Origin: a virus
Lineage: Duplodnaviria > Caudoviricetes
Reading direction: 5' to 3' (one strand)
Length of the DNA stretch: 64,000 bases
Virus record (IMG/VR): IMGVR_UViG_3300024272_002379
Below the pieces are notes generated by a model. The model ran no database searches and was not told the origin of the DNA. It saw nothing but the letters and a program-made list of their open reading frames with translations. Below are positions 1 to 22,558 of this stretch, piece by piece. The number at the start of each line of letters is the position of its first letter. Position 1 is the stretch's first letter. Made by a program: the position numbers and the translations under genes.

Positions 1-1304
1 TGGTCAGGATAAAAATCATTGTCAGCACATTCATCACAATCAAATGGTCTAAACCCATGAAGATTTTCTCTTTCTGATTGAGCAATATCATAAGCAACAC
101 ATTGCATTTGGACACTATACAGGCCAGGGAAACCTGGAACAGTATTGGTGGTTACTGACTCAATCATTACAAATAGAGAACCTGTAAATTCTACAAGTTC
201 TGATTCTAATTTTACAAATCCTACAGAACGTAATTTAATATTATTTCTAGTAAGTAAGTCATTAGCTACTTGGCATTGTTCCAGTGCTTGCACTGTTGAA
301 TAATCCGTTGTCTCAAACGCAATATTGTAAATTGTATCCATGCCACCCATGAATTGTACTGTAGGAGATGAAGAGTCCGACAATTGAATATTAGTTAAAA
401 GATTAGAATAGCCACATTGGAATCCTGTAATTACAACATCTGATTCATTACTATCCAACCAAGTAACGTAATTAGTTGTAAGATTGCCATTTTCGTCATA
501 TCGCACTTTCTTTGTGTCACACACAATTTCCAACATATTTGCTTTTGTAGCTTCTTTTGATGTAAATACACTACTATCTAAAATACTAATTTTAAATCTA
601 TTGTGTTCTTTATTAGGCGGTAAGCTTTGAAGTTTTTTGTAATCATGGTCTTCAGTCAAAAAGCTTTGATAGTAAAATCTAAACAAATCCCAGTCAATCA
701 TGTATTTAAAACATACGTCTGGCATTTCAATATATGGAAACATGTTAACTTCCTGCAATGTAATTTGAGCTGTCATTGCGTTAGGAAAACCTTGTATGGT
801 AGACATTGTAATTGACTGTAATGCAACTGTGAAAATACCATACATACCATTTATCAATTCATTAGATATTGGCAAGAACGGAGTGCATTTAAATTGAGCC
901 AATAACTGTCTTAATCCATCTACATAATAGTCACCTTCTGGACCATCTACTTTATAGCCATTAAGTTGTTCTATACCATTAAACACCAAATCAATTAAAA
1001 TAGTTCTTTTATGATATCCAGCTTTCATTTTCTGAGTATTTTCCTGTCTCAAAGTAACAATACTTTGAGACGTTGACTCAGAATTTACCATGATAAATTC
1101 AGGAGGTATCATGAAATATGTATCACCTATTTGTAAATTGTATGTGTCATATAAGTATCTATGTGAATACGGAACATTATCCATTGCATCCAATGGTTCA
1201 ATACGTCTTTCGTCTTTAATTCTGGAAAGCTTATCAAGCATTTTTAATCCAGTTTCCGTATCTTTGATATTTATAATTTCTGGAGTGTTAAAAGTGATTC
1301 CCAT
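1..1304 (-). CDS. Partial (3'-truncated by window) probable baseplate hub/tail-tip protein; absent from the ORF track
   Basis: SD GGAGG at 1309-1313 and ATG at 1304. The frame reads MGITFNTPEIINIKDTETG...LQIGDTYFMIPPEFIMV...GLRQLLAQFKCTPFLPI...IDWDLFRFYYQ and appears to stay open towards position 1. Function is inferred only from its position after the tape-measure block. Confidence 0.7.
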   Translation of the reverse strand, partial: MGITFNTPEIINIKDTETGLKMLDKLSRIKDERRIEPLDAMDNVPYSHRYLYDTYNLQIGDTYFMIPPEFIMVNSESTSQSIVTLRQENTQKMKAGYHKRTILIDLVFNGIEQLNGYKVDGPEGDYYVDGLRQLLAQFKCTPFLPISNELINGMYGIFTVALQSITMSTIQGFPNAMTAQITLQEVNMFPYIEMPDVCFKYMIDWDLFRFYYQSFLTEDHDYKKLQSLPPNKEHNRFKISILDSSVFTSKEATKANMLEIVCDTKKVRYDENGNLTTNYVTWLDSNESDVVITGFQCGYSNLLTNIQLSDSSSPTVQFMGGMDTIYNIAFETTDYSTVQALEQCQVANDLLTRNNIKLRSVGFVKLESELVEFTGSLFVMIESVTTNTVPGFPGLYSVQMQCVAYDIAQSERENLHGFRPFDCDECADNDFYPD

Positions 1305-1319
1305 AATACCTCCTGCTTT

Positions 1320-4300
1320 CTATGTTAATTCTGCAAATTTATTTGCTAACCAGTTATCGGTTACTCCACTCATATCTGATTGACTGTATACTGATGACTG
1401 TCCGCCACCAGCCATTCCGATAAGTTTAGCATTGTTTCTGTCATCAATGTAGTTTTTTGTTTTTGCTGATACTTTAAATTGTAGTCCACTTTGTTTATCA
1501 TGATATACAACTCTTTGTTTAGAAGCTGGAGCTTGTGCAACAGGAGCTGTCATATCAGGTTCTCCATTGCCACCAGGTCTTCTAGCTGGAGTTAGTGGAG
1601 ATTGGTTTTTCTGATTGTGAAGTATGTTATTTGCAATACCAATTGCTGCTAAAGATGCTACCGTAATTCCTACCGTTTTCATAGGTATTTTACTTACCGC
1701 TTCTTTTGCCGCATCAAAGAAAGAACCACGTAACGTATTCTGCTTCATATTGTTTTGCATTTTTTGATGCATCTTAGAAGCAAGGTTTGCATCGTTAATT
1801 ACTTTATTTGCATCTGCCAATATTTTTCTATGGTGTGCTATAACTTGTTTTGCTTCGGCAGAGCTTGCAGTATATATTCTACCGCTATTAGATGAGTTCT
1901 TTCTAAAATCATATGCTCTTAATGCTCTTTGTGTTCCCAATACAGCATCTGCATATAAGCCTGTCGCTTTTCCTTCGGCAATAATATCGCTAATGCTCTG
2001 CTGAATACGCTGAACATCTTTTGGACTTAGTGATTGGAATTGAATACCCATGTACTCACCAAAACCAACAACAGACGTACTGCTTACTCTATCCCATTCA
2101 AAAACACTAGCCATTTGTTTCGAATCTCTAAACAAACCGTATATTTTCGCTTGTGTTTCTGCTATCAATTTGGAATTGGATGCTTGTAATGCTTGTCGAA
2201 TCTCTCCAAGAGAAGAGCCTCTTGTATTTAATGTATCTCTTAAAGGTCTTACTAAATCTCCTTGAGATAATTCTTCTGCTGCTTGAACATATTTTTCTAT
2301 TTCAGCAAATGACTCTAATAACTTTGATTCTTCACCTATTATATCATATAGACCTTTATTTAAAAAGTCCAAAGATTCGTCATATAATTTTTTACTAAAG
2401 TCTCCAACATTAGTTCTTTTCTGTACAGCTCTAGCCCATTCTTCAGCTCCTCCGCTTGCAGATATAAGTCTTTCTTGAAGTAGCATATCAATAGAACTAT
2501 TAGCATATTTATCTCGATTCTTAGCTATATCAGCATTTAATTGTCTAATTAAAGCATCTACACTTACTCTGCCAGATGCATTAGTAGTATACTGATAAGT
2601 CTGAGCCATTTCATTAATGCTGTCTAATATTTGCTGTCCATTACCTTTAAAAAGACCATTAATGTATTCATAACTAGTTACATTAAATGCCATTTTATCT
2701 ATTTGTGCAAATCTAGGGTCAAAACTTTTAGCTATAGAACCGTCTGCTCCTAGTAATAACGAATTCAATGTTCTGGCTATTTTACGTTCAGCTATATTAC
2801 TATCAGCGATTGCTCGTATTTGACTATTATTTTTATATTCATAAATATTAACGCCAGCACCAGATTCTTTATTAAGTCCAAAAAAGTCTAAAGCTTTGCT
2901 GTTAATTGAGGCTATATTTTTTCCTTCGATTGAAAAAGTTTCACCTGTTTCTTCCAATGTGCTTAAGCTCACTTCTTTGAACATAGCTCTTTTAGACTTT
3001 CCAGAACCCTCAAAACCTGCATACATATATCCTCGGTCATGAGCATCGCCTAAGTCACCTGGTCGAATATATAAAGAATTTTTATCAAATAATATATGTG
3101 TATCACTTGATGCGTCCATAAAAGCTTCTCTAAATGCATTTTGGATTGTGCCATAGATACTACCTTTGTACTCTCCACGATGAGACAGGTCAAGTATCAT
3201 TCTCATGTAATCATCTAATGAGCCTGTATTAATACCTCTGTTAAAAATAACATTGGCACCTTCTAAGTTAGATATATCATACAAACCTCTGAACCATTTT
3301 TTATATATTATTGTCTCGGCGGTTTTTTTATCTACCTTTGAAATCTGTTTATCAAAATCGCTTCTAGTGGTAGACATGATTTCTTGTATAATACTCTTTA
3401 TCTCATCATCGCTGGCTTTAAATAAAACATGATTACTTGCTCGTATCATATTTTCAAGTCCCGCAGCTTTCATTGCTGCTGATGTATCTCTTAAGCTAAA
3501 CATTTGATTTAAGCCAAATGACCACTTAGAAGTTTCAGCAATGTTAAATGCATCAATTAAATGCTTTACGTCGATACCTTTCTGCTCTGTGATGCCAGTT
3601 AAACCTCTGGTTTCAGTTCGCATATTGGACATATCGTTTAATATTGATGTATACTCTTCACGTAATTCATCACTAAACTTAGGGTCATTTACAAATGACA
3701 GTATGGTTTCACGCAAATTAAAGTTTGGTGTGGAAATTGCACCGATATTACTTTTACGTAATGCAGGGGTTAAGGAAGCTTTTATTGAGTCAGCATCTGT
3801 AAGAGTATTGAATCCAGCTCTTTCCCATGCTCCTGTCATAAATTCCGAATGATTAGCTGCATCTAAAAAAGCATCATCTATATCTCTAACGTCTGTATAT
3901 GCATAACCTCTGTCGTCCATGTACGCTTTCACAGCATCCCAATATGCATCTTCTTTGAACGATTTAAGCATTCCAGCAAGAGCATTACCTGTGTCATTCA
4001 ACATATCTTTCTGGAAAGCTTTACCTTCTTCTATCATATTAGCGATAATTTCAGTACCGTAAGTAATACTCTTTTTGTAAGATTGTAACAAGTTATCGTA
4101 TCTATCTTGTCCTATCTTGCCCATGCTGTTACCATCGAGTACTAAATGTAAAAACGTGGTATCACCGTCAAAGTCAACATTTGTGTATACAGACATTGCA
4201 GGGTTTAAGAAACGAATTTGTCTATCCTGAATAGTCCTATCTAATAATACGTTTACGGCAGGCTGCCCTCCAAATACAGGATAACGTAAGTGTTCACCTA

Positions 4301-7300
4301 GTAAACCAACTGTTTCTACGTATTTTTTACCTATCTCTTCAAAGGTTCCAAAGATGCTAGTTAAGGACCCATTTGCAATGCCTCTATTTACATCTCTAAT
4401 GTCAAGCATTGAACTACCAGTTCCAGTATCACCATACAATTCTGTTATTTGTCTGTTTAAAGTTTTTGTGATACCAGCTCCGCCATTTTCAAGCAAATCA
4501 CTATCTGCAATATGGATTCCGTCTATGTCTAACGCATTGATTCTATCAACTACATCTTTTACTTCACTAGGCATAATGGAGAATCTATCCATACCTGGGA
4601 TTGAATATTTGCCTTTTGTACTTCCTTCAAAATCAGCAACAATATCCATACCTGCTTTTCCAAAGTCAAAACCAAGGTCTTTAAAACCTTGTTCTCCTAT
4701 TGCAACCGCATTATTGTAATATTGTTTTCCATCTATAGTTACAATAGAAGCATCACGTAATGTTCTATTTTGAATAGAAGATAGTGGGCTAAGAGTATCT
4801 GCATTTCTTACTTCGCTATCTGCAATTCGAGATAGTTTGGTTCTAATTTCAGCATCTAATTTTGAAAGCTTATTAATATTTTCAAGAGAATCTTCGCCAT
4901 TATGAATAGCTTGTCTTACACTATCTCTTTCTGCAATTAATTTTTGTACGTCATCGCTAAGCATAGAGTCTATAATCGCAGGAGTTTCATCTTGAGCAAG
5001 AAACTGACCAGAATTTGGTAATGCGTATCTACCAAACGCTTTATACATGTCAGAATCTTTTTTCATAATAGCAATTTCGCTATATAGTTGCTGAGCAAAA
5101 TTCTTGTAGTACTCAGACATTTTACCACGCATAGAAGGATTCTTCGCTGCTTCAATCATTTCATTAAAGAAACGAGTAATATTCCTATGCTGGTCCATCA
5201 AGAATTGGCTATCATCTAAGTGAGTTGTAACATTCTGTCTAGGAATTAAAGCACCTCTATATGTTTTTGTATCTTTACCTTTTCCTATTGTTATTTCTTC
5301 TCCAAAATCAAAGAAGATACTGTAACTTTTAGCATCAGTTAATTCAACATTTTGACGTTTAGCTAATGCTTCCAGCCAAGCCGCAGGTTTGCCATCAATA
5401 TCAAAAATGAAATCTTGAAGGTCTTTTACTCTTGCATTCTTTGGAACGTTTTTACCATTCATCAAATCTTGCATTGTAACAGTAACAATATTATATTCCT
5501 TAGGGTTGAAGCTTGCTGGATTTGCATAATAAGCAGAAGCTTCTACAATGCCACGAATGCTGTCTTGATTTGCCAATACACCTCTATTATATCGTCTTAT
5601 TTCACTTATATTGTTTTTCGATATGGCATCTGCTAATTCTTGTATTGCTCCTAAGTCATCACTTAAGAAACCAATACCCTTCCCAACGTCTTTTGACATT
5701 GCATATTCTTTGGTTGCGTCAACATATAAATCATCCCAAGAGCGACCACTTCCACCAACTATACGACCATTAACTCCGTCAATAATACCATCTGTTCCAC
5801 CTGATAAATATTCTTTATTTCTAATACGAATACTTTGCTCAAGTCGCTGGTCCATTCTAAACATGTTACTTAAGTGCTCATTCATATGAACTCTTTGTAA
5901 TGGACCATATATGATGTTATTCTCTCTATTGTATTGAAGTAATTTAGCAATTCTTGAATTAATAACATTACCATCTGTATGTGTTGTAATGTATTTTTCC
6001 AATGCTGTAATTGCTTCAACCATGTGAGCTGCGTTAGTGTTGTCAACAATAAATGTTTGACCGTTATCAGCAATATCTAAAGTCCAATCTTGGAAGTATT
6101 TATATAAACCATTTGACTTATCTTGAATGATGTTCCTTAAATTATCCAACTTACCGAATTTAGCATATTCGGCTTCGATTGTGTACCAAGTAGACCATGA
6201 GGCATAATTGTTATTATGCTTTGATGCAGCAATATTTCCAGCAACACTTGCATTATCGAATATATACTGGAACATTCCATGAGCATATTCCATGGCTTCT
6301 TTTTGTGTACTTATACCAGTATAGCTCATAAACGGTTTCATGCTAATTGTATGAGCAGTAGCTTTTTCTGAGCCAATCATTGTTTTAACGTCACTTATAG
6401 AAGCGTGTTCTGGTATTACATATGTACTTCCCTGTTCAAGTAATTCTTCTATATTCTCAAGGCTAAATTTTGCTTTAGGTCCTCTATAATAAATAGACTG
6501 TCCGCTTTCTGTTACAGCTATAACAGTATTACTGTCTAAATCTTTATATGCTAAATTTCCAAGTATTTTTCTTGTCTTTTGCTCGTCAATGTTGTTAATG
6601 TTAAAACTTACTTTTTTAGCATCAGGAGACTGGAAGAAATCTTGATTGCCTAATAGGGGGTCGAGAAACCATTTACCTTCGTAAACACTACTTAAATCCT
6701 CACGCATATACTGAAGAGTTGCTCTTGCTTTATCAACATCAAGACCCAATGCTTGAGCGATACTCTCTATATTCTTTTCAGCATCACGATATTTTAACTG
6801 TAAATCAATATCACTTATTTGTTTAAAGCGAGTTGTGATAGCTCTTTGCTGTGTATCAAAAGGTAATCCATCTGGAGTAAGTGTTGTTTTCCCAAGCTGC
6901 TGTCTTATACTATATTCTGTTGGAGTTAATGATGTAGGTCTTGCCATTATATACCCGCTTTTCAGTGGGTCATCTACTATTTCACCTTCTAAAGCTTTAA
7001 CATCTATTTCCCCAAGACCAAAATACATAGGTCTATTTTGCTGTGTATAAGTAGGTCTCATAGTACTAAATAATCCAGCAAGATTATTAAAAGCACCAGG
7101 TTTAATAAACGAAATCAACCCATGATTTATAGCAGATTCAGGTAGTAACTGATTAATATAAGGAATTGCTCCTTCAAAAGAAGATAATGCTTCAGCAACA
7201 GATTTTGTATAACGTTTATTATCAGAATCCATAGCTACTGCGTCTTGCATTAGTCGGAAAATACTTTTATCAAAAGACTCTGGTGTATACCCAATATCAT

Positions 7301-10300
7301 CAGGTATATAGGAACTTATTTGCATAGCAGAATCTCTCATTACACTACCATGGAATAGGTTCTTAACAAAAAATTCATTAAAAGCGTTTGATTCTGTAAT
7401 AGCTCTAAACTGTGTGACATTTTTAGCTTCTCTTAAGTCCGCACTTACTATATGCTGCTGCTCATTGAAAATATAGAGCATTTGTTGTATTGGATTGAAA
7501 CCTGATTCCGAATATGTTTCTGCTATTTCACCAATTAATGTCTTTAAACCAGTTACATTCATTTCATATGCATGTAAAAAGTCAGCAGGGTGGTAATTTG
7601 CAATACGTTCAACTCCATTGGCTGTCACATATCCTCTATAACTTGATGGAGATGATAGTTCCTTAAGTTTTGCATTTTGAGTTCTACGAATAGCTGATTG
7701 TGCTTTCTCGAATTCATCATTTAATACGAATTCAATTGCTTTTCCTCCAGCTATTCTATGAGCAACAAGTAAGTCTTCAGCACCCGATTTTATCATGGCA
7801 CTTACTTTTCCATTTTTTGAGTATACGTCAAAAATAGGATTTAAAAACTTTTCTATTCTTCCTTGATTGATAGACGTTAATGTAGCTGTATTTCCTGTAA
7901 TGCCATGTATAGCTTCTGGCATTGAATCACCTAAACTAGTTTTATTTATTCCATACAGTTCTTCTACGGCTCCATGTCCTTCTAATGCACTACTTAATGT
8001 ATGATAATCTACATCATCATTTAAGCCAGAAAGAATTTGTACCACACTATTGCTGTGTTTTTTATTGGTAAGTACTACAAAAGCGTTGGAACTATTTTCT
8101 GGCAGCAAAACGAATGACTGCAATCCTTTTTTAACGTTTTCAGGTGAGTTAATTGCGTAAGGAGCGTAATAAGATTTTCCGTTTTTCTTGTAATGAGATG
8201 AAAACATTTCCTCAACAATTGTTTTCTCATCAGTGCTAAGATTTAATTTACGAGCAATTTTGTTGGAAACGCCATCATGCATGGTTCCTGTATAAAATGA
8301 CATAGAAGTTACATCAGATAAAGATTGTGTAATTCTATCTTCAATAGCTTCTCTGACTGCCTTTTGTCCGAACAAAGAAGACGCCTGATAAAATTTTTCA
8401 CCAGACTGATAACGATAGCGTGACTGAGCACCTGTAAGTAAATTATCAACAATAGATTGCAAGTTCTTATTTGCAATTCTTATATCTGAACCATCAGCTA
8501 GAATTTGTCTATATTCATCTATTGCATTTGATGATGTATTAAATCTATCTGTAATACCAACTAACTGACTTGCTACATCTACAAGAAAACCATTGATGCC
8601 AGCATTTGGCTGGAATGATAAATCTATGCTATGTTTTAAAGATGTTACTTGTTCAGCAGTAATCAAACTTCTTGCTGCTAAGTTTTCTACGACAGAACCT
8701 GCTTCTTGAGCAGTCATGCCATTGAATATATTTCTAAGACCAGGTATGGCACTATCTACTGATTGTGCATTGATTCTTTTAAGCTCATTACCAACTTGAA
8801 CGTCAATACCAAATACGTCACTTAATCCATAATGGGCTTCTTTTGGGGTAAAAGCTATATACTGACTCGTTAAATAATCCATAGTACTATCGTAAGCTTT
8901 TTGTAATGCAATTGTCTTTGTAACATTATTTGCATTACCCATTGTACTATCAATTTGATTAACGATATAGCTAAGAATGTCTTTTTCCTGGCTTAATCTT
9001 TCAAACATACCAGCAAATGCTTGTTCTTGATAAGTACTTCTAAGTGGGCTGTTAGACACACCATGAAGACGAGAAACTAATGCTGGTCTCGCTTTTTTAT
9101 TTGCAAAATCTTCTAATCCATCTAATTCCTCTACAAAACTTAGATATCTTTTTAATCCTTCGAAACCATATTCATCGGTTCCTTTATTTGCACGAACTGA
9201 TAATGGGTCAAAAAATTTTGCGTATTCTCTTCTGCCTTTATCGAGATAGCCCATTACATGCTGTTCGTTAATTTGCTTTTGTGTAACTGCACTATCAGAA
9301 ATCCATGTGGTATTTTTTCTTAAAAACTCGATTGCTTTATCTGGAGTTTCAAACTCTTTATGAATTTCTATAGATTTATCGGCAGGGTTAATAAAGCTCA
9401 AAATAAACTTTTCTTGAGCTTCTCCAGTACTTCCATCTATTACACTTGCAAACCCTGTCTTTTCTGTATTCACTCTCCAATATTCATTACCCATAGAATA
9501 TGACTGAGGAATAGGGTCTCCTGCTATTACAGCCATATCAGATGTAGACTGGTCAATGTATCCTCTATTCATTAAGAATAATGAACCATTTAAATCTACA
9601 TTGTACGCTCCAATTGCATCTCCATTGCCAGTCATTTCTAGTAATGAATCAATAAAGGATTTATTACCATTGTAATGACGGGTGAATATAATATCTCCTT
9701 CGTTTACTGTATCTTCACTACCTATATGTAACTGACTTCTGTTCATGCGTAATGATTCCATGATACTTTCAACAGAAGCAGGTCTATCTGTATCAGATGG
9801 AATAATTCCATGCATTGCATCTGTAAAGCTCAATACAGATTGGCCTTTAGCGGTAGCCATTGTACGAACAGCATTTACAGCGTCAATTGTATTTTCATAT
9901 ATATGTCTAAAGTTAACACCTTGGTTAACCTCTAATCTTCTTGATGTCTGTTCTAATGCAGTAATATCAAATATATTATTTGCTCCTGCTAAAGCAGATG
10001 TATTAGAACCAACAGCATTGTTTATATATGCTGTTAATTGGGGAATGATAGCTTCAGGTCTCGCTCCGCTATTATAAAGTGTCTGTAATCTATCAGCACC
10101 AATTTTCATAATAGCTGGATTCATTGATGATTCGCCAAGTCTATTGACTGTCCAATAATGACCATCTCCAAGAACGGTATCATTTCTACTGAAAAATACG
10201 TCATGGAATGTTGGCAGGCTACCAATTTTACTAACTCTATCAAGAGTTACTTGTTCTGCATTAGTTAAAGCATCCCATCCAGATTTTTCATACTTGCTTA

Positions 10301-10766
10301 TTAAAGATTTAATTGCTAAAGTTTGTTGTTGATTTGTACCAAAAGCAAAAGACACCGCATTGGATAAGTCTGTATTTAATGCTCCATTTTCATAGACACG
10401 TCTACCAATACCAAATTCGGTAATGGTAGCGTATCCATCGTATTTACTTACTTGATGTGCAATATCACCAATAGTTTCAAGGTCCCATACGATTACTTCT
10501 CCAGAGCCTTCAGCTATTGTTTTTGCTTTTTGCCATTGAGGTAATGCACCAAGAGTCTGGAATACAGACTCTTGATTTTGGGAGTTAACGATTCGTAACG
10601 CACCCTCTAATGGATATGAACTTATCGCATTAATTGCAGACTGGTTTGGCTTTAAAACTGTATCTATATATTGTTCTTTGCTGCGTTTATTATATGGTCT
10701 AATATTTGTAATATTATCCCATATCTCTTGTGGGGATACATTATATCCTATAACTTCCATAAACAT
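1320..10766 (-). CDS. Giant virion protein: N-terminal DEDDh 3'-5' exonuclease + single-chain two-barrel (DPBB) RNA polymerase + C-terminal TM segment (putative virion RNA polymerase)
   Basis: beta'-like HLRYP...IRFLNP...NVDFDGD...FLH (R2161, DFDGD 2198-2202, nt 4161-4175). beta-like DVKTMIGSEKAT (K1461/K1468). DEDDh motifs WDLET (D95/E97), ANNIFD (D267) and HIGSED (H347/D352). Hydrophobic VGITVASLAAIGIANNIL near the C-terminus. The SD favours a start at the second ATG (10760). Confidence 0.85.
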   Translation of the reverse strand: MFMEVIGYNVSPQEIWDNITNIRPYNKRSKEQYIDTVLKPNQSAINAISSYPLEGALRIVNSQNQESVFQTLGALPQWQKAKTIAEGSGEVIVWDLETIGDIAHQVSKYDGYATITEFGIGRRVYENGALNTDLSNAVSFAFGTNQQQTLAIKSLISKYEKSGWDALTNAEQVTLDRVSKIGSLPTFHDVFFSRNDTVLGDGHYWTVNRLGESSMNPAIMKIGADRLQTLYNSGARPEAIIPQLTAYINNAVGSNTSALAGANNIFDITALEQTSRRLEVNQGVNFRHIYENTIDAVNAVRTMATAKGQSVLSFTDAMHGIIPSDTDRPASVESIMESLRMNRSQLHIGSEDTVNEGDIIFTRHYNGNKSFIDSLLEMTGNGDAIGAYNVDLNGSLFLMNRGYIDQSTSDMAVIAGDPIPQSYSMGNEYWRVNTEKTGFASVIDGSTGEAQEKFILSFINPADKSIEIHKEFETPDKAIEFLRKNTTWISDSAVTQKQINEQHVMGYLDKGRREYAKFFDPLSVRANKGTDEYGFEGLKRYLSFVEELDGLEDFANKKARPALVSRLHGVSNSPLRSTYQEQAFAGMFERLSQEKDILSYIVNQIDSTMGNANNVTKTIALQKAYDSTMDYLTSQYIAFTPKEAHYGLSDVFGIDVQVGNELKRINAQSVDSAIPGLRNIFNGMTAQEAGSVVENLAARSLITAEQVTSLKHSIDLSFQPNAGINGFLVDVASQLVGITDRFNTSSNAIDEYRQILADGSDIRIANKNLQSIVDNLLTGAQSRYRYQSGEKFYQASSLFGQKAVREAIEDRITQSLSDVTSMSFYTGTMHDGVSNKIARKLNLSTDEKTIVEEMFSSHYKKNGKSYYAPYAINSPENVKKGLQSFVLLPENSSNAFVVLTNKKHSNSVVQILSGLNDDVDYHTLSSALEGHGAVEELYGINKTSLGDSMPEAIHGITGNTATLTSINQGRIEKFLNPIFDVYSKNGKVSAMIKSGAEDLLVAHRIAGGKAIEFVLNDEFEKAQSAIRRTQNAKLKELSSPSSYRGYVTANGVERIANYHPADFLHAYEMNVTGLKTLIGEIAETYSESGFNPIQQMLYIFNEQQHIVSADLREAKNVTQFRAITESNAFNEFFVKNLFHGSVMRDSAMQISSYIPDDIGYTPESFDKSIFRLMQDAVAMDSDNKRYTKSVAEALSSFEGAIPYINQLLPESAINHGLISFIKPGAFNNLAGLFSTMRPTYTQQNRPMYFGLGEIDVKALEGEIVDDPLKSGYIMARPTSLTPTEYSIRQQLGKTTLTPDGLPFDTQQRAITTRFKQISDIDLQLKYRDAEKNIESIAQALGLDVDKARATLQYMREDLSSVYEGKWFLDPLLGNQDFFQSPDAKKVSFNINNIDEQKTRKILGNLAYKDLDSNTVIAVTESGQSIYYRGPKAKFSLENIEELLEQGSTYVIPEHASISDVKTMIGSEKATAHTISMKPFMSYTGISTQKEAMEYAHGMFQYIFDNASVAGNIAASKHNNNYASWSTWYTIEAEYAKFGKLDNLRNIIQDKSNGLYKYFQDWTLDIADNGQTFIVDNTNAAHMVEAITALEKYITTHTDGNVINSRIAKLLQYNRENNIIYGPLQRVHMNEHLSNMFRMDQRLEQSIRIRNKEYLSGGTDGIIDGVNGRIVGGSGRSWDDLYVDATKEYAMSKDVGKGIGFLSDDLGAIQELADAISKNNISEIRRYNRGVLANQDSIRGIVEASAYYANPASFNPKEYNIVTVTMQDLMNGKNVPKNARVKDLQDFIFDIDGKPAAWLEALAKRQNVELTDAKSYSIFFDFGEEITIGKGKDTKTYRGALIPRQNVTTHLDDSQFLMDQHRNITRFFNEMIEAAKNPSMRGKMSEYYKNFAQQLYSEIAIMKKDSDMYKAFGRYALPNSGQFLAQDETPAIIDSMLSDDVQKLIAERDSVRQAIHNGEDSLENINKLSKLDAEIRTKLSRIADSEVRNADTLSPLSSIQNRTLRDASIVTIDGKQYYNNAVAIGEQGFKDLGFDFGKAGMDIVADFEGSTKGKYSIPGMDRFSIMPSEVKDVVDRINALDIDGIHIADSDLLENGGAGITKTLNRQITELYGDTGTGSSMLDIRDVNRGIANGSLTSIFGTFEEIGKKYVETVGLLGEHLRYPVFGGQPAVNVLLDRTIQDRQIRFLNPAMSVYTNVDFDGDTTFLHLVLDGNSMGKIGQDRYDNLLQSYKKSITYGTEIIANMIEEGKAFQKDMLNDTGNALAGMLKSFKEDAYWDAVKAYMDDRGYAYTDVRDIDDAFLDAANHSEFMTGAWERAGFNTLTDADSIKASLTPALRKSNIGAISTPNFNLRETILSFVNDPKFSDELREEYTSILNDMSNMRTETRGLTGITEQKGIDVKHLIDAFNIAETSKWSFGLNQMFSLRDTSAAMKAAGLENMIRASNHVLFKASDDEIKSIIQEIMSTTRSDFDKQISKVDKKTAETIIYKKWFRGLYDISNLEGANVIFNRGINTGSLDDYMRMILDLSHRGEYKGSIYGTIQNAFREAFMDASSDTHILFDKNSLYIRPGDLGDAHDRGYMYAGFEGSGKSKRAMFKEVSLSTLEETGETFSIEGKNIASINSKALDFFGLNKESGAGVNIYEYKNNSQIRAIADSNIAERKIARTLNSLLLGADGSIAKSFDPRFAQIDKMAFNVTSYEYINGLFKGNGQQILDSINEMAQTYQYTTNASGRVSVDALIRQLNADIAKNRDKYANSSIDMLLQERLISASGGAEEWARAVQKRTNVGDFSKKLYDESLDFLNKGLYDIIGEESKLLESFAEIEKYVQAAEELSQGDLVRPLRDTLNTRGSSLGEIRQALQASNSKLIAETQAKIYGLFRDSKQMASVFEWDRVSSTSVVGFGEYMGIQFQSLSPKDVQRIQQSISDIIAEGKATGLYADAVLGTQRALRAYDFRKNSSNSGRIYTASSAEAKQVIAHHRKILADANKVINDANLASKMHQKMQNNMKQNTLRGSFFDAAKEAVSKIPMKTVGITVASLAAIGIANNILHNQKNQSPLTPARRPGGNGEPDMTAPVAQAPASKQRVVYHDKQSGLQFKVSAKTKNYIDDRNNAKLIGMAGGGQSSVYSQSDMSGVTDNWLANKFAELT

Positions 10767-10771
10767 TCCTC

Positions 10772-13700
10772 CTAAATTTGTAATCCAGCTATTTGTCGTG
10801 ATACGTCATCTCTGGCATCTCGTTTTATAAAGAACGATGTTTTATTGCCATTAGATGACTGCATAAAACTTGTTTGAACGTTTTCATATCCCGCCCTACC
10901 AAGTATCTGATTAAGTCTTACTTGTACCTGTCTAGGTCCATTAGTAGCATCAATCATTGGAATAGGGATATTTACTTCATCTGCTTGTTCTAAATCATCA
11001 TCCCAAATATCAAATTCACCTGGGTCTAAATTGTTTTGGTGAACAAGCTTAACTTTAACATCTTCGATGTTTGTACTTTCGTCCCAACCAATCCATGAAG
11101 CATCTGGTAAACCATGGGTTCTAAAATATTCATTTAGAGATGGTTTTTCATCTACTGGCATTCCCCATGCTGATTGTAAAGCTCTTCGTAAATAGCTTGG
11201 TGCAATACGTAAGATTTTTTCTTTTTCTTCCTCTGGAGCATCTACAAAGTGTTGGAAATATTGACGTTCTTTCTTAGGAAGAGCTGTCATGATATTTACA
11301 AGAGATTCTCCAGGGTCATATCCGTACATAGTTTGTTCTGCCGCTTGTTTAAATTCAATGGCTTTTAGTGCATTTTTTGGTAACTTTGTTACCTTACGTT
11401 GACTTTGTAATTCACCCAGCTCTTTATTAATGGCACTTATCGTTTGTTTTTTGCTCATTGATTTATCAACATATTTCGGCTCTCCATACTTAAAATTATA
11501 CCTATCTCTATGTTTGAAATCAAGTTTAACCTTGCGTTTGTAATCTGTAAGTTCTTGTTGTCTTAACTTATTAGATACGCCTTTTGCTTCTTTTGATTTC
11601 ATGAATGTTTCTACGTCAAAGTGGTCTTCTTTTTTAGCTTTCACTTTATATTGTTCATAGAGGCGTATATTTTTAACGTATTTTAAAATGTCTACGTATT
11701 CATTGAGTTTTTCTTGCTCTCTTCTACGTTTTGGTCTCCAGTCTCTATCCTCATTTGAGCCAGCAATAAAAGCTACTTTACCAATAGCTGGAACGGTAGC
11801 TCCAACAACAGTGCCTACTAATTTACCAAATCGCCCTTTTCCAAATAAGCTTCCAATAAAGCCACCCATAAGAATTCCGCCTAAACCGCCAAGAGAATTA
11901 TTTGCAATATTTTCTTCTATATGTGGAATAAGTATATCTCTAATAGGATGATTCCATGACTGGAAATCTTTTGAATAAACTTCACGTTTACGATACTGTT
12001 CATAAGGCGAACGTACTTGCAAAAACTTACTTCCAATAAATGGAATATTTCCAATAACATCATGAGTTAATGTTTCCATAGCTGAACCAAAAGCAATTTC
12101 CCCTTTTGTGTATCTAGCCTGAATTGCTGCTGGGGAATTATCATTCTCTTTTTCTTTAGCATGACCTTTGTTTAATAATACCTGATTTACGTTTACTCCT
12201 CTGGAATGAACTACAGCTCTTATTGAACGAGATGAATCTTTTGAGTATTTATTATGTTCATCAGCATCATAAGAGATTCTGATTCTTGCTCCTGGTCTAA
12301 TATATTTTCTAATGGCACTTCTTGCTGCATCATTTTTGGTACGTTCTTCGTCATACATTTCACTATTAGACATAGATACATTTATGCCAGCAAATTTAAT
12401 AGCATGTTGTTTGCCATATTCTTTCGTAACGATTGTATTGTTATCTATAATCTTAGTCACTGTTACCGTTTCGGTTTTAAGATTCGATGTTTTAAATTTA
12501 TAATCATAAACTCTTAAAGGCTCTTTTTGCTGTTTAATACGTTCTCTTATTTGTGAAGCTTCTTGTTGCTCTTCAGGTGATAAGTCTTCACGACTAAGTT
12601 GAGCAGAAACATCTTTAAATTCCTGTGAATAAGGAGCTACGTCTGCAAGTATTCTAAATCTATCAAGGGTGCTATATAATTCACCTCTTCCGATTTCGCC
12701 TCTTTCTATTGCTTTTCTTATAGTTTGACGAGCTTCGTAAACATTTTGTAATGTCTTCTTAAGTTCGCTTTCGCTGTAATCAAATCCAACGGTATAGGTA
12801 TTATTAGGATTCTCTTTATCAACGTAATAAATGTATCCCTTAGAATTCGTATTTCCAGTTGCCCACAAATAGAAATTAGTTTGTCTCATATGATGAGTTA
12901 ATGGCTTACCCGACTTACGAATTTCATTTAACTTTTTAGCAGATGTGGACTTAATATCTACAATAGCCACGCCAGTAGGAGAAGATAAATCATGAACCTT
13001 TGCATCGTACCATCCAATAATTCCATTACGTTTATCTTCTACTTTACCTTCTACGTCAATCGCTAAACCTGCATCTAACCATGATTGTTGTATCTGTTTA
13101 TGAATTTCGTTACCTTTTTCAAGAGTATCTTCTTCAAATGTGCTCATATATTTATCAGCTTTTAACATGTGCTTAATAATATAATCTTTTTCATATCCGA
13201 TAGAAGAAGAGCCTATATTAAACTCCATTAGACCCTTGATATTATGCAGTCTTTCATATCCCTCTCCAGGTAATCTTTCTTCGCCATTATCTATTTTTGA
13301 ATAAGGGTCTCCATGTTTAAAATCTGTAAAATAATCAGAGCCTGGCATCCATGACGGCATTGTGTTTCTAATAGGGTTTACATACTCTGTTTTATTATTT
13401 CGCTTAGGAATAAAACGACGAGTGATTTCGGATAACGTACCGCCAAAACCGCCTAGATTTTCTTCCCAGAAATCATTATTAAAACTATACGCATACCCAG
13501 AGTTCTCTATCATTCTTGCCTTTTCATTTGCTTCTCCTGTAACGAATGTCTGTAAAGCAAAGCCTTTTAAACCAGCTATATCGCCTAACCAGTTAAACTG
13601 TTCGCCTAATCCATATACAAATGCATTATCTATTAATCTATTGTCGTTACCTACTGGAATTCCAGGCCCAGTAATATTGGATATACTTACTCTTTGTTGA

Positions 13701-16700: not shown

Positions 16701-16756
16701 TCTATATGTGTTTGAGTGTTTAGAATTCTTCTTTCTAATCTGTTGTCTGATAACAT
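10772..16756 (-). CDS. Tape-measure-like protein with embedded PD-(D/E)XK nuclease and degenerate SNase (thermonuclease) domain
   Basis: Follows the tail chaperones. Gly-rich hydrophobic segments (IGLVGATGYGLF; GLGGILMGGFIGSLFG...LVGTVVGATV). GNEIH...GWYD...IVDIKS...QTNFY nuclease motifs. VTKIIDNNTI...IKFAGIN...VNQVLLNKGHA SNase-like motifs. Own SD GAGGTG. Confidence 0.75.
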   Translation of the reverse strand: MLSDNRLERRILNTQTHIDHQDTSDNDPLYNMIKIGLVGATGYGLFKSGALKDIMRPLLELADNIAREGTDRAGTVMRTIKQWSNLKPISQNQNYTMPKMSLFRDRESSVFYDLMQDFKDISGTRQTNFHRMRELMEGTKQDIGLLSKMIQDSQSNLATQRTNYLNTDLHYRMKELRGLELDARQNAPTQATQFTSKAIEEFMNAMTLNPRQAAQELSESGYRKLTLGDVAELTRDEFGVRKLVRKEGIDFNIDSRTNEKYESLLDSVNDFFSYSSHRYMKDGKPTNAFASGDWQNIIVDSSIRINESGHIIDYRMSKNNMIEFAHSLANDFKLPLVQFNPFKTLFGFDKIGRRKPLMGLINSEQYDANITRMGGREYKIGEWMAETFGDDYRYKNIAIINGKAYTTDGNAQLQELGSGFKLHDITYADESYGLKPMHNATRQMSGLSMGEAQKIALDKYEALLREEGVELNKFQKFKYEASKFLDMGYQESRPMGEDVERTLDTATNFDEFMDNLINKMTEKVRVNGYEYDDVQEMLNQVRQFNYKSVFGEGHEKFKVDGKDFQPRMYSTTKEGFKVSQAYNYFSQGDTDKALHELEGFAKQFFVGRNADNTMHEFFTERSGFTWSILNQLSEGLGSASYLLGLSIDSKRSSTSMAWNLLTKRALPIFLATQVPGVINYLSEPFFGSGDETGNRDNITKFMMRNVVRPIDIGAHHAMDLVGATKLFKFLGEMTPGSDQINELPGVYQLGLGQTAEEREEYIENGYDPIRKGRYWGSGNTPFTGGKIMYFRPNLYRRVQADVEFSDSKWGSRQEYYNNTWFPNPVNPLAPLNHFIFNRNYYDKKHYYDRPYLQTAPVGQNIPIIGPLFGSTIGSVISPPQKMHLEYWQNGFQINPMDELPSTLLTEGRSSFDNSERDINTFNRAEQSAAASAIADSNNLYTSAYQAKQITKRTIRDNAGIDFEQRSILPVRTYDRYNTPYEVYSTPSGALNVVDVPDTMNLYNVNQDLQRYSLNKVIGTQQRVSISNITGPGIPVGNDNRLIDNAFVYGLGEQFNWLGDIAGLKGFALQTFVTGEANEKARMIENSGYAYSFNNDFWEENLGGFGGTLSEITRRFIPKRNNKTEYVNPIRNTMPSWMPGSDYFTDFKHGDPYSKIDNGEERLPGEGYERLHNIKGLMEFNIGSSSIGYEKDYIIKHMLKADKYMSTFEEDTLEKGNEIHKQIQQSWLDAGLAIDVEGKVEDKRNGIIGWYDAKVHDLSSPTGVAIVDIKSTSAKKLNEIRKSGKPLTHHMRQTNFYLWATGNTNSKGYIYYVDKENPNNTYTVGFDYSESELKKTLQNVYEARQTIRKAIERGEIGRGELYSTLDRFRILADVAPYSQEFKDVSAQLSREDLSPEEQQEASQIRERIKQQKEPLRVYDYKFKTSNLKTETVTVTKIIDNNTIVTKEYGKQHAIKFAGINVSMSNSEMYDEERTKNDAARSAIRKYIRPGARIRISYDADEHNKYSKDSSRSIRAVVHSRGVNVNQVLLNKGHAKEKENDNSPAAIQARYTKGEIAFGSAMETLTHDVIGNIPFIGSKFLQVRSPYEQYRKREVYSKDFQSWNHPIRDILIPHIEENIANNSLGGLGGILMGGFIGSLFGKGRFGKLVGTVVGATVPAIGKVAFIAGSNEDRDWRPKRRREQEKLNEYVDILKYVKNIRLYEQYKVKAKKEDHFDVETFMKSKEAKGVSNKLRQQELTDYKRKVKLDFKHRDRYNFKYGEPKYVDKSMSKKQTISAINKELGELQSQRKVTKLPKNALKAIEFKQAAEQTMYGYDPGESLVNIMTALPKKERQYFQHFVDAPEEEKEKILRIAPSYLRRALQSAWGMPVDEKPSLNEYFRTHGLPDASWIGWDESTNIEDVKVKLVHQNNLDPGEFDIWDDDLEQADEVNIPIPMIDATNGPRQVQVRLNQILGRAGYENVQTSFMQSSNGNKTSFFIKRDARDDVSRQIAGLQI

Positions 16757-17438: not shown

Positions 17439-17449
17439 GACAAATCCTC

Positions 17450-18013: not shown

Positions 18014-18029
18014 GGTATTTTCCTCCTAG

Positions 18030-18395: not shown

Positions 18396-18476
18396 ATTAT
18401 ATCATCCTTTCTTGAAATTCTCTACCTATTTTTATAGGCTTTGTAATTACTTGAAGTATGAGTACTTTATAATGCA

Positions 18477-19091: not shown

Positions 19092-19103
19092 TGTTACACC
19101 TCC

Positions 19104-19865: not shown

Positions 19866-19877
19866 TTCATCACCCCT

Positions 19878-21569: not shown

Positions 21570-21601
21570 GATGATTCTCTCCTTTCAAATAATTCATATA
21601 A

Positions 21602-21656: not shown

Positions 21657-21682
21657 GTTTATTTCTAATCTGATTGATTGAA

Positions 21683-22531: not shown

Positions 22532-22558
22532 AATTTGTTTCCTCCTCTTTCAAATTAT

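What the first reader, a model, noticed from the sequence alone, without database searches (positions are those of the whole stretch)
3540..6700. Single-chain two-barrel RNA polymerase core inside the 3148-aa protein
Seen: LRYPVFGGQPAVNVLLDRTIQDRQIRFLNPAMSVYTNVDFDGDTTFLH aligns by eye with the beta' catalytic segment (NRxP...IxLHP...NADFDGD...H). About 700 aa upstream, VYEGKWFL and DVKTMIGSEKAT match the beta-side barrel with its two lysines. Downstream, SNIGAIS and EQKGIDVKH resemble the IGxI and xIDxxK elements of YonO/QDE-1-type single-chain enzymes. Inference: an intact catalytic RNAP.
Basis: partly seen in the sequence, partly recalled or inferred. Interest (0 to 1): 0.88.

Follow-up and report, generated by a model that had tools for sequence, protein, structure and literature searches.

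The report
Hidden RNA polymerase in giant tail protein
A 3,148-residue protein in the tail gene block of an uncultured ~210-kb contractile-tailed phage contains a complete-looking, very divergent single-chain version of the cell-type RNA polymerase core, so the phage probably carries its own transcription enzyme in the particle and injects it.

Summary

**Motifs and conservation**
- All quoted motifs lie in one ORF (window 1320-10766, minus strand, 3,148 aa).
- DxDGD is kept in every full-length family member retrieved. These are about 65 metagenomic clusters, nearly all 3,100-3,650 aa.
- Mean column identity across the family is only 19%.

**Sequence searches fail.** Pfam, PHROGs, PDB sequences and cultured-phage genomes recognise nothing.

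**The fold does.** AlphaFold2 on 73 sequences (aa 1338-2423) gives pLDDT 87 and pTM 0.87.
- In an exhaustive comparison with 48,161 PDB chains, the top 17 are all two-barrel RNA polymerases.
- These include QDE-1 (Z 9.9), RDR2 (9.3) and the P74-26 non-virion RNAP (8.1), followed by cellular, viral, crAss gp66 and P23-45 gp96 enzymes.
- The single-chain enzymes align across both halves of the model.

**Context**
- The flanking genes are homologues of virion proteins gp145 and gp147 of Bacillus phage 0305phi8-36.
- The giant gene sits in the slot of gp146, the "hypothetical tape measure". gp146 lacks the motif.
- A complete relative also encodes a YonO-like second polymerase.

**Not shown:** enzymatic activity and virion packaging.

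This is a new, sequence-unrelated lineage of a kind published for Thermus phage P23-45. This scan has already flagged tape-measure-slot polymerases in at least 19 other genomes.

The parts
1320..10766 (-). Whole ORF, 3,148 aa (P0001): giant protein in the tail/tape-measure slot that carries the polymerase core
   Evidence: Full-length homologues of 3,100-3,650 aa in metagenomes. No cysteine in the whole chain.
3498..6755 (-). Modelled polymerase core, aa 1338-2423 (model residue n = aa n+1337)
   Evidence: AlphaFold2 on alignment A3: pLDDT 87.4, pTM 0.87. Top PDB, ESM-Atlas and Foldseek neighbours are all RNA polymerases.
5817..6692 (-). Beta-like barrel region (DPBB-B side), about aa 1359-1650. 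It includes VYEGKWFL and the invariant or near-invariant K1516-H1517 and D1639-x-R1641.
   Evidence: Single-chain RNAP alignments start at model residue 22-24. ESM-Atlas clusters carrying PF00562+PF00623 align from model residue 18-41. Conservation. The boundaries are approximate.
6351..6392 (-). Beta-hairpin DVKTMIGSEKATAH (aa 1459-1472) with K1461 and K1468. Candidate counterpart of the two active-site lysines of the beta-side barrel.
   Evidence: K1461, E1467 and K1468 are at least 90% conserved in 73 sequences. Two strands are predicted at model 123-127 and 130-135. The mapping onto beta K1065/K1073 is inference (own knowledge of E. coli beta).
5031..5525 (-). Connector/clamp-like region, about aa 1748-1912
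   Evidence: Largest subunits of cellular and viral RNAPs align from model residue ~411 with their N-terminal (clamp) parts. The archaeal RNAP clamp chain 3qqc_A aligns at Z 4.5 on model 393-567. Weak evidence.
4137..5030 (-). Beta'-like barrel (DPBB-A), about aa 1913-2210, apparently interrupted by a ~130-aa helical insertion (about aa 2024-2154)
   Evidence: Stand-alone DPBB domains (Cdc48 N domain, designed DPBB 7dww/7dvc, VAT 7dbo) align to model ~580-900 at Z 4.5-5.3. Strand pattern.
4161..4286 (-). Catalytic segment R2161-Y-P2163 ... N-V-D2198-F-D2200-G-D2202
   Evidence: R, P and the three D are invariant. hhalign aligns it to E. coli beta' 422-469 (E 0.0031) and to P23-45 gp96 733-888, which includes RNP...GVDFDGDT (E 3.8e-4).
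3690..3758 (-). Bridge-helix-like helix RKSNIGAISTPNFNLRETILSFV (aa 2337-2359)
   Evidence: G2342 and S2345 are invariant; K2338 and I2341 are at least 90% conserved. Helix at model 1004-1022. Alignments to beta'/Rpb1 run through this region. The assignment is inference.
3561..3605 (-). Trigger-loop-like motif GLTGITEQKGIDVKH (aa 2388-2402)
   Evidence: E2394, Q2395 and K2401 are invariant in 75 sequences. Alignments end at M. tuberculosis beta' ~1013 and Rpb1 ~1116, where their trigger loops lie (trigger-loop positions from own knowledge). The assignment is inference.
9711..10502 (-). N-terminal region with DEDDh-exonuclease-like motifs (aa 89-352): DLETIG, GANNIFD, HIGSED
   Evidence: D95, E97, N263, H347 and D352 are invariant and D267 nearly so in 33 sequences. 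hhalign against E. coli DnaQ aligns only the ExoII motif, E 0.079. No Pfam hit. Not established.
1617..1688 (-). Single hydrophobic, transmembrane-like segment (aa 3027-3050)
   Evidence: The only Kyte-Doolittle peak above 1.4 in the protein. Conserved in the family.
1323..1514 (-). Conserved C-terminal tail (aa 3085-3148) ending ...GVTDNWLANKFAELT
   Evidence: Many invariant columns in A1. The same C-terminal motif is present in distant members. A similar ...RSWLEKQFGD tail occurs in 0305phi8-36 gp146 (not significant).
10772..16756 (-). Upstream neighbour, 1,994 aa: homologue of 0305phi8-36 virion protein gp145, with a PD-(D/E)XK nuclease domain
   Evidence: BLASTP 31% identity over ~2,000 aa, 854 bits. 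PF12705 E 9.3e-5 and phrog_1706 E 8e-11.
3..1304 (-). Downstream neighbour (runs off the window): homologue of 0305phi8-36 gp147 (annotated endolysin, peptidoglycan-degrading tail protein)
   Evidence: BLASTP 31% identity over 389 aa, E 3e-49.

Best explanation
Residues ~1340-2420 of the 3,148-aa protein form a catalytically competent, single-chain two-barrel (double-psi beta-barrel) nucleic-acid-templated RNA polymerase.

**Proposed anatomy (N to C)**
- A beta-like barrel supplies conserved basic residues (K1461, K1468, K1516/H1517, R1641).
- A long connector/clamp-like region follows.
- A beta'-like barrel binds the catalytic Mg2+ through D2198, D2200 and D2202, and holds the RNA 3' end with R2161-x-P2163.
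- A bridge-helix-like helix (aa 2337-2359) and a trigger-loop-like element (aa 2388-2402) come next.

**Proposed role**
- The enzyme is embedded mid-chain in a giant protein made with the tail genes of a ~210-kb contractile-tailed phage related to Bacillus phage 0305phi8-36.
- The gene occupies the slot of that phage's virion protein gp146, the 'hypothetical tape measure'.
- I infer that the protein is built into the particle, is ejected with the DNA through the tail (probably unfolded or extended), and is anchored at the membrane by its C-terminal hydrophobic segment.
- There it would transcribe the first phage genes without host RNA polymerase.
- A separately encoded YonO-like non-virion polymerase would then take over.

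**Shown:** motifs, their conservation, fold, and gene neighbourhood.
**Inferred:** catalysis, template type, packaging, ejection, and the two-polymerase relay.
For: **Motifs and conservation**
- All motifs are present.
- The three aspartates and RxP are invariant in 73-75 sequences of 19% mean identity.

**Model.** pLDDT 87.4, pTM 0.87, built without templates.

**Exhaustive PDB comparison.** Ranks 1-17 of 48,161 chains are all two-barrel RNAPs.
- QDE-1 7y7p_A: Z 9.9, rmsd 4.0 A, 288 residues aligned, model 23-1086.
- ZmRDR2 7w84_A: Z 9.3.
- P74-26 gp62 8f5m_A: Z 8.1.
- Pol II, Pol I, archaeal, AR9, M. tuberculosis beta', vaccinia and phiKZ: Z 6.4-6.9, on model 411-1086.
- crAss gp66 6vr4_B: Z 6.2, 336 residues aligned.
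- P23-45 gp96 8h2m_A: Z 5.9.
- Isolated DPBB domains align on model ~580-900.

**Other structure libraries**
- Foldseek against PDB: all top 50 hits are RNAP largest subunits. AR9 7s01_d has probability 0.97.
- ESM Atlas: 10 of 10 nearest clusters are RNAPs. Rows 1-3 are fused Rpb2_6+Rpb1_2 proteins aligned over model 18-1024.

**Profile comparisons.** hhalign puts the catalytic segment on E. coli beta' 422-469 (E 0.0031) and on gp96 (E 3.8e-4, probability 36%).

**Gene context**
- The window holds terminase, portal, capsid, sheath and related genes on the same strand.
- The flanking genes are homologues of gp145 and gp147.
- In the 0305phi8-36 record, gp145 and gp146 are annotated as identified in virions by mass spectrometry; gp147 carries no such note.
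- The same three-gene arrangement occurs in a complete 208-kb relative.

**Second polymerase**
- A YonO/RdRP-type gene (PF05183, 66.6 bits) is present in that relative and in 0305phi8-36.
- An unchecked note of this scan reports one in the window's own genome.

**Precedent.** P23-45 gp96 is a tape-measure-fused virion RNAP acting together with a non-virion RNAP (PMC10770324).
Against: - No sequence method recognises an RNAP: Pfam, PHROGs, PDB phmmer/hmmsearch and tblastn all give nothing.
- No Foldseek E-value against PDB is below 1e-3, and the best Z is only 9.9. The case rests on the uniformity and collinearity of the hits rather than on one strong score.
- No residue-level superposition was available, so the roles assigned to the lysines, bridge helix and trigger loop are not verified.
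- The positional counterpart in the nearest cultured phage, gp146, shows no detectable similarity and has no DxDxD. Its virion status therefore transfers only by gene position.
- The gene immediately after the tail chaperone-like genes is the 1,994-aa protein, not this one. A ruler role for the 3,148-aa protein is open.
- The best structural neighbours, QDE-1 and RDR2, are RNA-dependent enzymes, so the template is not settled.
- A ~1,100-residue globular core with a clamp-like part would have to unfold to pass through a tail tube.
Confidence: 0.68

Rival explanations
1. It is a real, active two-barrel polymerase with a different job from early-gene transcription. It might act as an RNA-dependent RNA polymerase, a primase-like starter of phage DNA replication, or a maker of RNA that counters host defence. 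In this reading it may work inside the infected cell without being delivered by the particle.
For: - The top structural neighbours are the RNA-dependent enzymes QDE-1 and RDR2.
- The chain also carries DEDDh-exonuclease-like motifs at its N-terminus.
- The phage lineage already has a YonO-like polymerase that could do the transcription.
- gp146 of 0305phi8-36, in the same slot, has no polymerase motif.
Against: - QDE-1 also uses DNA templates (PMC9508822 abstract).
- The gene is co-oriented with and embedded in the late structural/tail block, between homologues of the 0305phi8-36 tail-module proteins gp145 (MS-identified in virions) and gp147.
- It has a C-terminal membrane-type segment like ejected tail proteins.
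- The three giant phage-borne polymerases discussed in the papers consulted (N4, crAss gp66, P23-45 gp96) are virion enzymes for early genes (abstracts).
Confidence: 0.17
2. The polymerase fold is an inactive relic. The protein would be purely structural, serving as a tape measure or ejection conduit, with the barrels kept only as a scaffold.
For: - The slot counterpart gp146 has no motif.
- crAss gp66 crystallised with its motif in a non-catalytic conformation (bioRxiv 10.1101/2020.03.07.982082).
- No activity data exist for this family.
Against: - A scaffold would not keep exactly the metal-binding aspartates, RxP, the lysines and the EQK motif invariant while everything else drifts to 19% identity.
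- Only one of about 75 members changes the motif, and only G to A.
Confidence: 0.08
3. The resemblance is an artefact: a chance DFDGD in a large helical tail protein combined with an over-confident model.
For: - All sequence searches are negative.
- Foldseek E-values lie between 0.017 and 0.14.
Against: - Three libraries searched with different methods return only RNA polymerases.
- The first, poorer model, built from 17 sequences, already gave a list dominated by beta' chains.
- hhalign independently picks the catalytic segments of beta' and gp96.
Confidence: 0.03

Closest known systems
Thermus phage P23-45 gp96 (also P74-26, G20c, TSP4): tape-measure-fused virion RNA polymerase (PMC10770324; PDB 8H2M/8H2N)
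   Same: - Single-chain two-barrel RNAP with DFDGD inside a giant tail-module protein that also has a membrane segment.
- Almost undetectable by sequence.
- The phage lineage also encodes a second, non-virion single-chain RNAP.
- hhalign aligns the catalytic segments (E 3.8e-4, probability 36%).
- Structural match Z 5.9 over 158 residues.
   Different: - Its host phage is a siphovirus with an 84-kb genome. Here the phage is a ~210-kb contractile-tailed phage related to 0305phi8-36.
- The gp96 polymerase is N-terminal (DFDGD at 779 of 5,002). Here it is central (2198 of 3,148), behind ~1,340 residues that include exonuclease-like motifs.
- gp96 is clamp-less and flat. This model has a region that aligns with RNAP clamps.
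- No metallopeptidase domain was detected.
- The two P23-45 enzymes resemble each other. This core shows no similarity to its lineage's YonO-like enzyme.
- It is not the gene directly after the tail chaperones.
QDE-1 / plant RDR2 and phage YonO family (Pfam PF05183 RdRP)
   Same: - Best structural neighbours: Z 9.9 and 9.3, aligned across both barrels.
- Same beta-like then beta'-like order in one chain.
   Different: - No Pfam PF05183 match in any of 75 members.
- No hhalign similarity to the YonO-like protein of a related phage.
- Embedded in a 3,148-aa tail-module protein rather than free-standing.
crAss-like phage phi14:2 gp66 virion RNA polymerase (PDB 6VR4)
   Same: - Giant (2,180 aa) virion protein with a central two-barrel core.
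- Encoded beside other giant structural genes.
- Structural match Z 6.2 over 336 residues spanning both barrels.
   Different: - gp66 comes from a podovirus.
- Its motif is DFDID rather than DFDGD.
- No sequence or profile similarity.
Bacillus phage 0305phi8-36 gp145-gp146-gp147 tail-module giants
   Same: - Same gene order.
- gp145 and gp147 are clear homologues of the neighbours (31% identity).
- The sheath is 37% identical.
- gp146 is a giant MS-identified virion protein in the same slot, with a similar extreme C-terminal tail.
- The phage has a YonO-like RNAP.
   Different: - gp146 (2,537 aa) has no DxDxD motif.
- It shows no detectable similarity to the polymerase core.
Multisubunit RNAP beta/beta' and fused beta-beta' phage proteins (PF00562 + PF00623)
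   Same: - The catalytic segment aligns with beta' 422-469.
- The beta' N-terminal half through the trigger-loop region aligns with model 411-1071.
- Fused viral beta-beta' clusters are the nearest ESM-Atlas models.
   Different: - No Pfam match.
- No Zn-binding cysteines; there are no cysteines at all.
- No detectable similarity to beta by hhalign.

Membership tests
Two-barrel (double-psi beta-barrel) RNA polymerase superfamily | Beta'-type barrel carrying the metal-binding DxDxD (NADFDGD-like) loop | tested here: met
   - NVDFDGD is present, with the three D invariant.
- hhalign registers it on E. coli beta' 458-464 and on the DFDGD of gp96.
- DPBB-only domains align to model ~580-900.
Two-barrel (double-psi beta-barrel) RNA polymerase superfamily | [RK]xP 20-100 residues upstream of DxDxD (the filter used in PMC10770324, Supplementary Data 4 description) | tested here: met
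   R2161-Y-P2163 lies 34 residues before D2198. It is the only such match in the protein. R and P are invariant. The filter wording was read.
Two-barrel (double-psi beta-barrel) RNA polymerase superfamily | A second, beta-type barrel in the same active-site assembly | tested here: met
   - Single-chain RNAPs (QDE-1, RDR2, gp62, gp66, gp96) align from model residue 22-24 onward.
- ESM-Atlas clusters with PF00562+PF00623 align over model 18-1024.
- This is fold-level evidence from a predicted model.
Two-barrel (double-psi beta-barrel) RNA polymerase superfamily | Two conserved basic residues of the beta-type barrel at the active site | tested here: inconclusive
   K1461 and K1468 are at least 90% conserved and sit on a predicted hairpin. 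No residue-level superposition was available, and hhalign against E. coli beta found nothing.
Two-barrel (double-psi beta-barrel) RNA polymerase superfamily | Bridge helix and trigger loop after the beta'-type barrel | tested here: inconclusive
   Conserved helix at aa 2337-2359 and EQKGIDVKH motif. Alignments to beta'/Rpb1 extend to their trigger-loop regions. There is no residue-level check.
Two-barrel (double-psi beta-barrel) RNA polymerase superfamily | Mg2+- and template-dependent RNA synthesis | not testable with these tools
   Needs a biochemical assay.
YonO / QDE-1 / RdRP family (Pfam PF05183) | Match to the family profile | tested here: not met
   - No PF05183 hit for the protein or for any of 75 members at E<=1.
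- The same profile does find the separate YonO-like genes of G001 and 0305phi8-36.
- hhalign against the G001 YonO-like protein is negative.
- Structurally, however, this family is the nearest one.
crAss-like virion RNAP (phi14:2 gp66 family) | Sequence or profile similarity to gp66 | tested here: not met
   PHROGs gives no hit. hhalign is negative. Only fold-level similarity, Z 6.2.
P23-45 gp96-type tape-measure-fused virion RNAP | Homology of the polymerase module to gp96 | tested here: inconclusive
   hhalign probability 36%, E 3.8e-4, confined to the catalytic segment. Z 5.9 over 158 residues, lower than for QDE-1 or gp62.
P23-45 gp96-type tape-measure-fused virion RNAP | The carrier protein is the tail tape measure | tested here: inconclusive
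   - The gene lies in the slot of 0305phi8-36 gp146, annotated 'hypothetical tape measure protein'.
- It has one membrane-type segment.
- The 1,994-aa gene is the one directly after the chaperone-like genes.
- There is no similarity to gp146.
P23-45 gp96-type tape-measure-fused virion RNAP | Presence in the virion and ejection into the host | not testable with these tools
   Support is indirect only: the flanking homologue gp145 and the slot counterpart gp146 are annotated as MS-identified virion proteins in NC_009760; gp147 is not.

The most novel reading that the evidence does not exclude
A previously undescribed and widespread lineage of 0305phi8-36-like jumbo myoviruses delivers a mid-chain, clamp-bearing two-barrel RNA polymerase through a contractile tail. 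The polymerase is fused to an N-terminal DEDDh-type exonuclease. It is delivered alongside a neighbouring giant protein that carries a PD-(D/E)XK nuclease. Together with a YonO-like non-virion enzyme, this would give these phages fully host-independent transcription. It would have arisen independently of phiKZ-like, crAss-like, N4-like and P23-45-like solutions. It would also mean that 'tape-measure-slot' proteins are a general vehicle for injecting enzymes.
Probability: 0.4. Interest if true: 0.75.

Novelty: new variant of a known kind. Interest (0 to 1): 0.62.

Why it matters
- Injected polymerases let a phage start its programme without, or against, the host's transcription machinery.
- Only a few such solutions are documented: N4, phiKZ-like, crAss-like and P23-45.
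- This family shows the same trick in large contractile-tailed phages related to 0305phi8-36. Its core is so divergent that every sequence-based annotation misses it.
- It adds a well-sampled family (about 65 clusters at 50% identity) for tracing how two-barrel polymerases diversified.
- It raises the question of how a ~1,100-residue enzyme embedded in a 3,148-residue chain passes through a tail and refolds.
- It suggests that giant 'tape measure' or 'minor tail' proteins should be screened by structure for enzymatic cargo.

Tried and rejected
**Sequence recognition: nothing found**
- Pfam and PHROGs on the whole protein.
- Pfam on 75 family members.
- PDB sequence searches with the protein and with profiles A2 and A4.
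- tblastn of aa 1300-2500, and of the NCBI-derived member P0051, against 50,697 phage records.

**hhalign: negative**
- Against crAss gp66.
- Against the YonO-like protein of the related phage G001.
- Against E. coli beta.
- Against 0305phi8-36 gp146.

**First model**
- Built from 17 sequences; pLDDT 62.9 and pTM 0.38.
- The whole-library VIA search with it was swamped by helical hairpins.
- Foldseek and pdb_via gave only weak beta' matches, Z 5.0-5.7 with rmsd ~15 A.
- It was superseded by the 73-sequence model.

**Acinetobacter phage vB_AbaM_ME3**
- BFVD gave a weak hit, E 7.5e-3.
- The profile search of its genome was empty.
- Its two DxDGD sites lie in small ORFs. The lead was dropped.

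**Reaching the rest of the window's own genome**
- No genome is held for the window.
- The terminase is not on record.
- The portal contigs were returned without DNA.
- The second polymerase was therefore checked only in the relative G001 and in 0305phi8-36.

**Other checks**
- Language-model look-up of the N-terminal 520 aa: uninformative, score 0.77.
- PF00940 (T7-like RNAP) in G001: no match, but the control was also silent, so this is uninformative.
- Cluster look-up: no member carries a name.

Full report
**1. Observation.**
The window is a single-strand block of phage structural genes: terminase, portal, protease-like, major capsid, two sheath paralogues, and tail and fibre proteins. It ends in three giant ORFs:
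- a 1,994-aa ORF (10772-16756);
- a 3,148-aa ORF (1320-10766, P0001);
- an ORF that runs off the window (3-1304).

DFDGD is at aa 2198-2202, the RYP...NVDFDGD segment at aa 2160-2207, VYEGKWFL at 1361, DVKTMIGSEKAT at 1459, SNIGAIS at 2339 and EQKGIDVKH at 2394. The finding's coordinates correspond to aa 1356-2409.

**2. Family and conservation.**
- A word-indexed search found 17 full-length relatives of 39-85% identity.
- An exhaustive phmmer run over 1.84 billion representatives found 65 clusters. Nearly all are 3,100-3,650 aa; there are a few fragments and one of 4,205 aa.
- Contigs reach 213-218 kb. No member carries a name.
- DxDGD is present in every full-length member. The middle residue varies freely, and one member has DHDAD.
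- In a 73-sequence alignment of the core (A3) with 19% mean column identity, only 11 columns are invariant: H1517, R1641, P1842, G2154, R2161, P2163, D2198, D2200, D2202, G2342 and S2345.
- K1461, E1467, K1468, K1516, D1639, K2338, E2394 and Q2395 are at least 90% conserved (for the C-terminal part).
- This pattern points to selection on an active site, not on a scaffold.

**3. Sequence methods do not see a polymerase.**
- Pfam, PHROGs, PDB sequences (single sequence and profiles) and tblastn against 50,697 phage records give nothing.
- The only sequence-level signals are profile-versus-sequence hhalign hits confined to the catalytic segment.
- E. coli beta' 422-469 (NRAPTLH...NADFDGDQMAVH) is the sole hit in that 1,407-aa protein, E 0.0031.
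- P23-45 gp96 733-888 (RNP...GVDFDGDT) gives E 3.8e-4, probability 36%.
- gp96 itself was reported to lack detectable similarity to known RNAPs outside its DFDGD (PMC10770324).

**4. Structure.**
A first model from 17 sequences was poor (pLDDT 62.9), yet its Foldseek list was already dominated by beta' chains. With the 73-sequence alignment, AlphaFold2 gave pLDDT 87.4 and pTM 0.87 for aa 1338-2423.

*Foldseek against PDB.* All 50 top rows are RNAP largest subunits, with E 0.017-0.14. AR9 non-virion RNAP has probability 0.97.

*VIA-align against all 48,161 PDB cluster representatives.* This search does not depend on Foldseek.

| Rank | Chain | Z | Notes |
|---|---|---|---|
| 1 | QDE-1 7y7p_A | 9.9 | rmsd 4.0 A, 288 aligned, model 23-1086 |
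| 2 | maize RDR2 7w84_A | 9.3 | |
| 3 | P74-26 gp62 8f5m_A (non-virion RNAP of the P23-45 group) | 8.1 | |
| 4-12 | Pol II, Pol I, archaeal, AR9, M. tuberculosis beta', vaccinia, phiKZ, Pol IV | 6.4-6.9 | all on model ~411-1086 |
| 13 | crAss phi14:2 gp66 6vr4_B | 6.2 | 336 aligned, model 23-1073 |
| 16 | P23-45 gp96 8h2m_A | 5.9 | |

- Below these come isolated double-psi beta-barrels (Cdc48 N domain, designed DPBBs) on model ~580-900.
- Single-chain enzymes therefore cover both halves. Multisubunit largest subunits cover only the C-terminal, beta'-like half, as expected for a beta-then-beta' fusion.

*ESM Atlas.* All ten nearest clusters are RNAPs. The first three are fused Rpb2_6+Rpb1_2 proteins, mostly viral, aligned over model 18-1024.

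*BFVD.* Two strong hits are unnamed or labelled 'Minor tail protein' and come from metagenomic phages, E 6e-11 and 5e-8.

No single score is overwhelming. Their unanimity across methods, their collinearity and the motif registers make a two-barrel polymerase core the only reasonable reading.

**5. Anatomy (shown versus inferred).**
*Shown:*
- a beta-like part at about aa 1359-1650;
- a long connector with a region that aligns with RNAP clamps, about aa 1748-1912 (3qqc_A Z 4.5, weak);
- a beta'-like barrel at about aa 1913-2210, split by a ~130-aa helical insertion;
- conserved helices after it.

*Inferred:*
- K1461/K1468 on a hairpin correspond to the two beta lysines. In E. coli these are K1065/K1073 in GDKMAGRHGNKG (my own knowledge).
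- RKSNIGAISTPNFNLR is the bridge helix.
- GLTGITEQKGIDVKH is the start of the trigger loop. Alignments end at M. tuberculosis beta' ~1013 and Rpb1 ~1116, where those loops lie.

*Outside the core:*
- N-terminal DEDDh-like motifs are invariant in 33 sequences but are not supported by Pfam. hhalign against DnaQ gives only E 0.079.
- There is one membrane-type segment at aa 3027-3050.
- The C-terminal tail is strongly conserved.
- The chain has no cysteine at all.

**6. Context.**
- The nearest cultured phage is the 219-kb myovirus Bacillus phage 0305phi8-36, with a sheath 37% identical.
- Its tail module reads: sheath, tube, chaperones, gp145 (1,930 aa), gp146 (2,537 aa, 'hypothetical tape measure protein'), gp147 (1,903 aa, peptidoglycan hydrolase).
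- gp145 and gp146 are annotated there as identified in virions by mass spectrometry.
- The window's 1,994-aa protein is a full-length homologue of gp145 (31% identity, 854 bits).
- The downstream ORF is a homologue of gp147 (E 3e-49).
- P0001 therefore sits exactly in the gp146 slot. gp146, however, has no DxDxD and no detectable similarity beyond a similar extreme C-terminal tail.
- A complete 208-kb relative from IMG/VR (G001) has the same three giants: 1,990, 3,134 and 1,925 aa.

*Second polymerase:*
- G001 has one other polymerase gene, a YonO/RdRP-type protein of at least 1,278 aa with DHDGD (PF05183, 66.6 bits).
- G001 has no beta'-type gene.
- 0305phi8-36 has a YonO-like gene too, as Iyer et al. 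noted (PMC7824862).
- An unchecked note of this scan reports such a gene 10.9 kb beyond this window. I could not reach that DNA.

**7. Mechanism.**
- Most likely (0.68) the protein is assembled into the particle with the tail and ejected with the DNA. It would then be anchored by its C-terminal segment and transcribe the first genes independently of the host.
- The YonO-like enzyme would be made afterwards and take over. This is the relay shown for P23-45 (PMC10770324).
- Packaging, ejection, template and the relay are all inferences.
- Rival readings are another polymerase job (0.17), an inactive relic (0.08) and artefact (0.03).

**8. Comparison and novelty.**
- The protein works like the P23-45 gp96, crAss gp66 and N4 virion polymerases.
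- It is not a sequence member of the gp66 or PF05183 families. Its link to gp96 is weak.
- It differs from gp96 in several ways: a contractile-tailed jumbo-phage host lineage, a mid-chain position, a clamp-like region, no peptidase domain, and no resemblance to its partner polymerase.
- I found no paper describing this family.
- Within this scan, however, tape-measure-slot polymerases have been flagged in at least 19 other genomes. One is a 3,221-aa protein that may belong to this family.
- I rate it a new variant of a known kind, with interest 0.62.

Noticed in passing
window 10772-16756 (-): The 1,994-aa protein directly after the tail chaperone-like genes is a full-length homologue of 0305phi8-36 virion protein gp145 (31% identity). 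It carries a PD-(D/E)XK nuclease domain at about aa 1204-1354 (PF12705 E 9.3e-5; phrog_1706 E 8e-11) and a glycine-zipper-like segment near aa 1623-1655. It is a candidate second injected enzyme.
   Followed up: partly
window 9711-10502 (-), aa 89-352 of the 3,148-aa protein: DEDDh-exonuclease-like motifs (DLETIG, GANNIFD, HIGSED) have D95, E97, N263, H347 and D352 invariant in 33 diverse family members. Pfam finds nothing. hhalign against E. coli DnaQ aligns only the ExoII motif (E 0.079).
   Followed up: partly
window 1320-10766 (-): The 3,148-residue protein contains no cysteine at all, which is unusual for a polymerase of this superfamily. It has a single membrane-type segment (aa 3027-3050) ahead of a highly conserved C-terminal tail ending in NWLANKFAELT.
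   Followed up: partly
L011 (NC_009760) 16624-24237; record 52623-60236: 0305phi8-36 gp146 occupies the same slot and is an MS-identified virion protein, but it has no DxDxD motif and no detectable similarity to the polymerase core. Its extreme C-terminus (...RSWLEKQFGD...) resembles the family's C-terminal tail. Whether it is a degenerate relative was not tested by folding.
   Followed up: partly
NC_009760 record 206204-206218 and 209484-211547: Besides its YonO-like gene (PF05183, 69.1 bits; DTDGD at 209952), 0305phi8-36 has a DNDGD-coding site about 3.7 kb away. This may be a second YonO-like paralogue.
   Followed up: no
window 22596-25004 and 25874-27460 (-): There are two tail-sheath paralogues (802 and 528 aa), as in 0305phi8-36 (gp139 and gp137).
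   Followed up: no
L005 (G001 192788-196987), ORF 367-4200: The complete 208-kb relative encodes a YonO/RdRP-type polymerase of at least 1,278 aa with DHDGD. This is far longer than the 582-position Pfam RdRP (PF05183) profile, of which only positions 161-508 matched, so it must carry extra domains.
   Followed up: no
BFVD entries A0A7R7G2L5 and A0A8S5SD80: Two UniProt viral proteins match the model strongly (E 6e-11 and 5e-8). One is unnamed and the other is labelled 'Minor tail protein' of Siphoviridae sp. ctnpt50. Public annotation of such look-alikes, whose family membership was not checked, therefore misses the polymerase.
   Followed up: no
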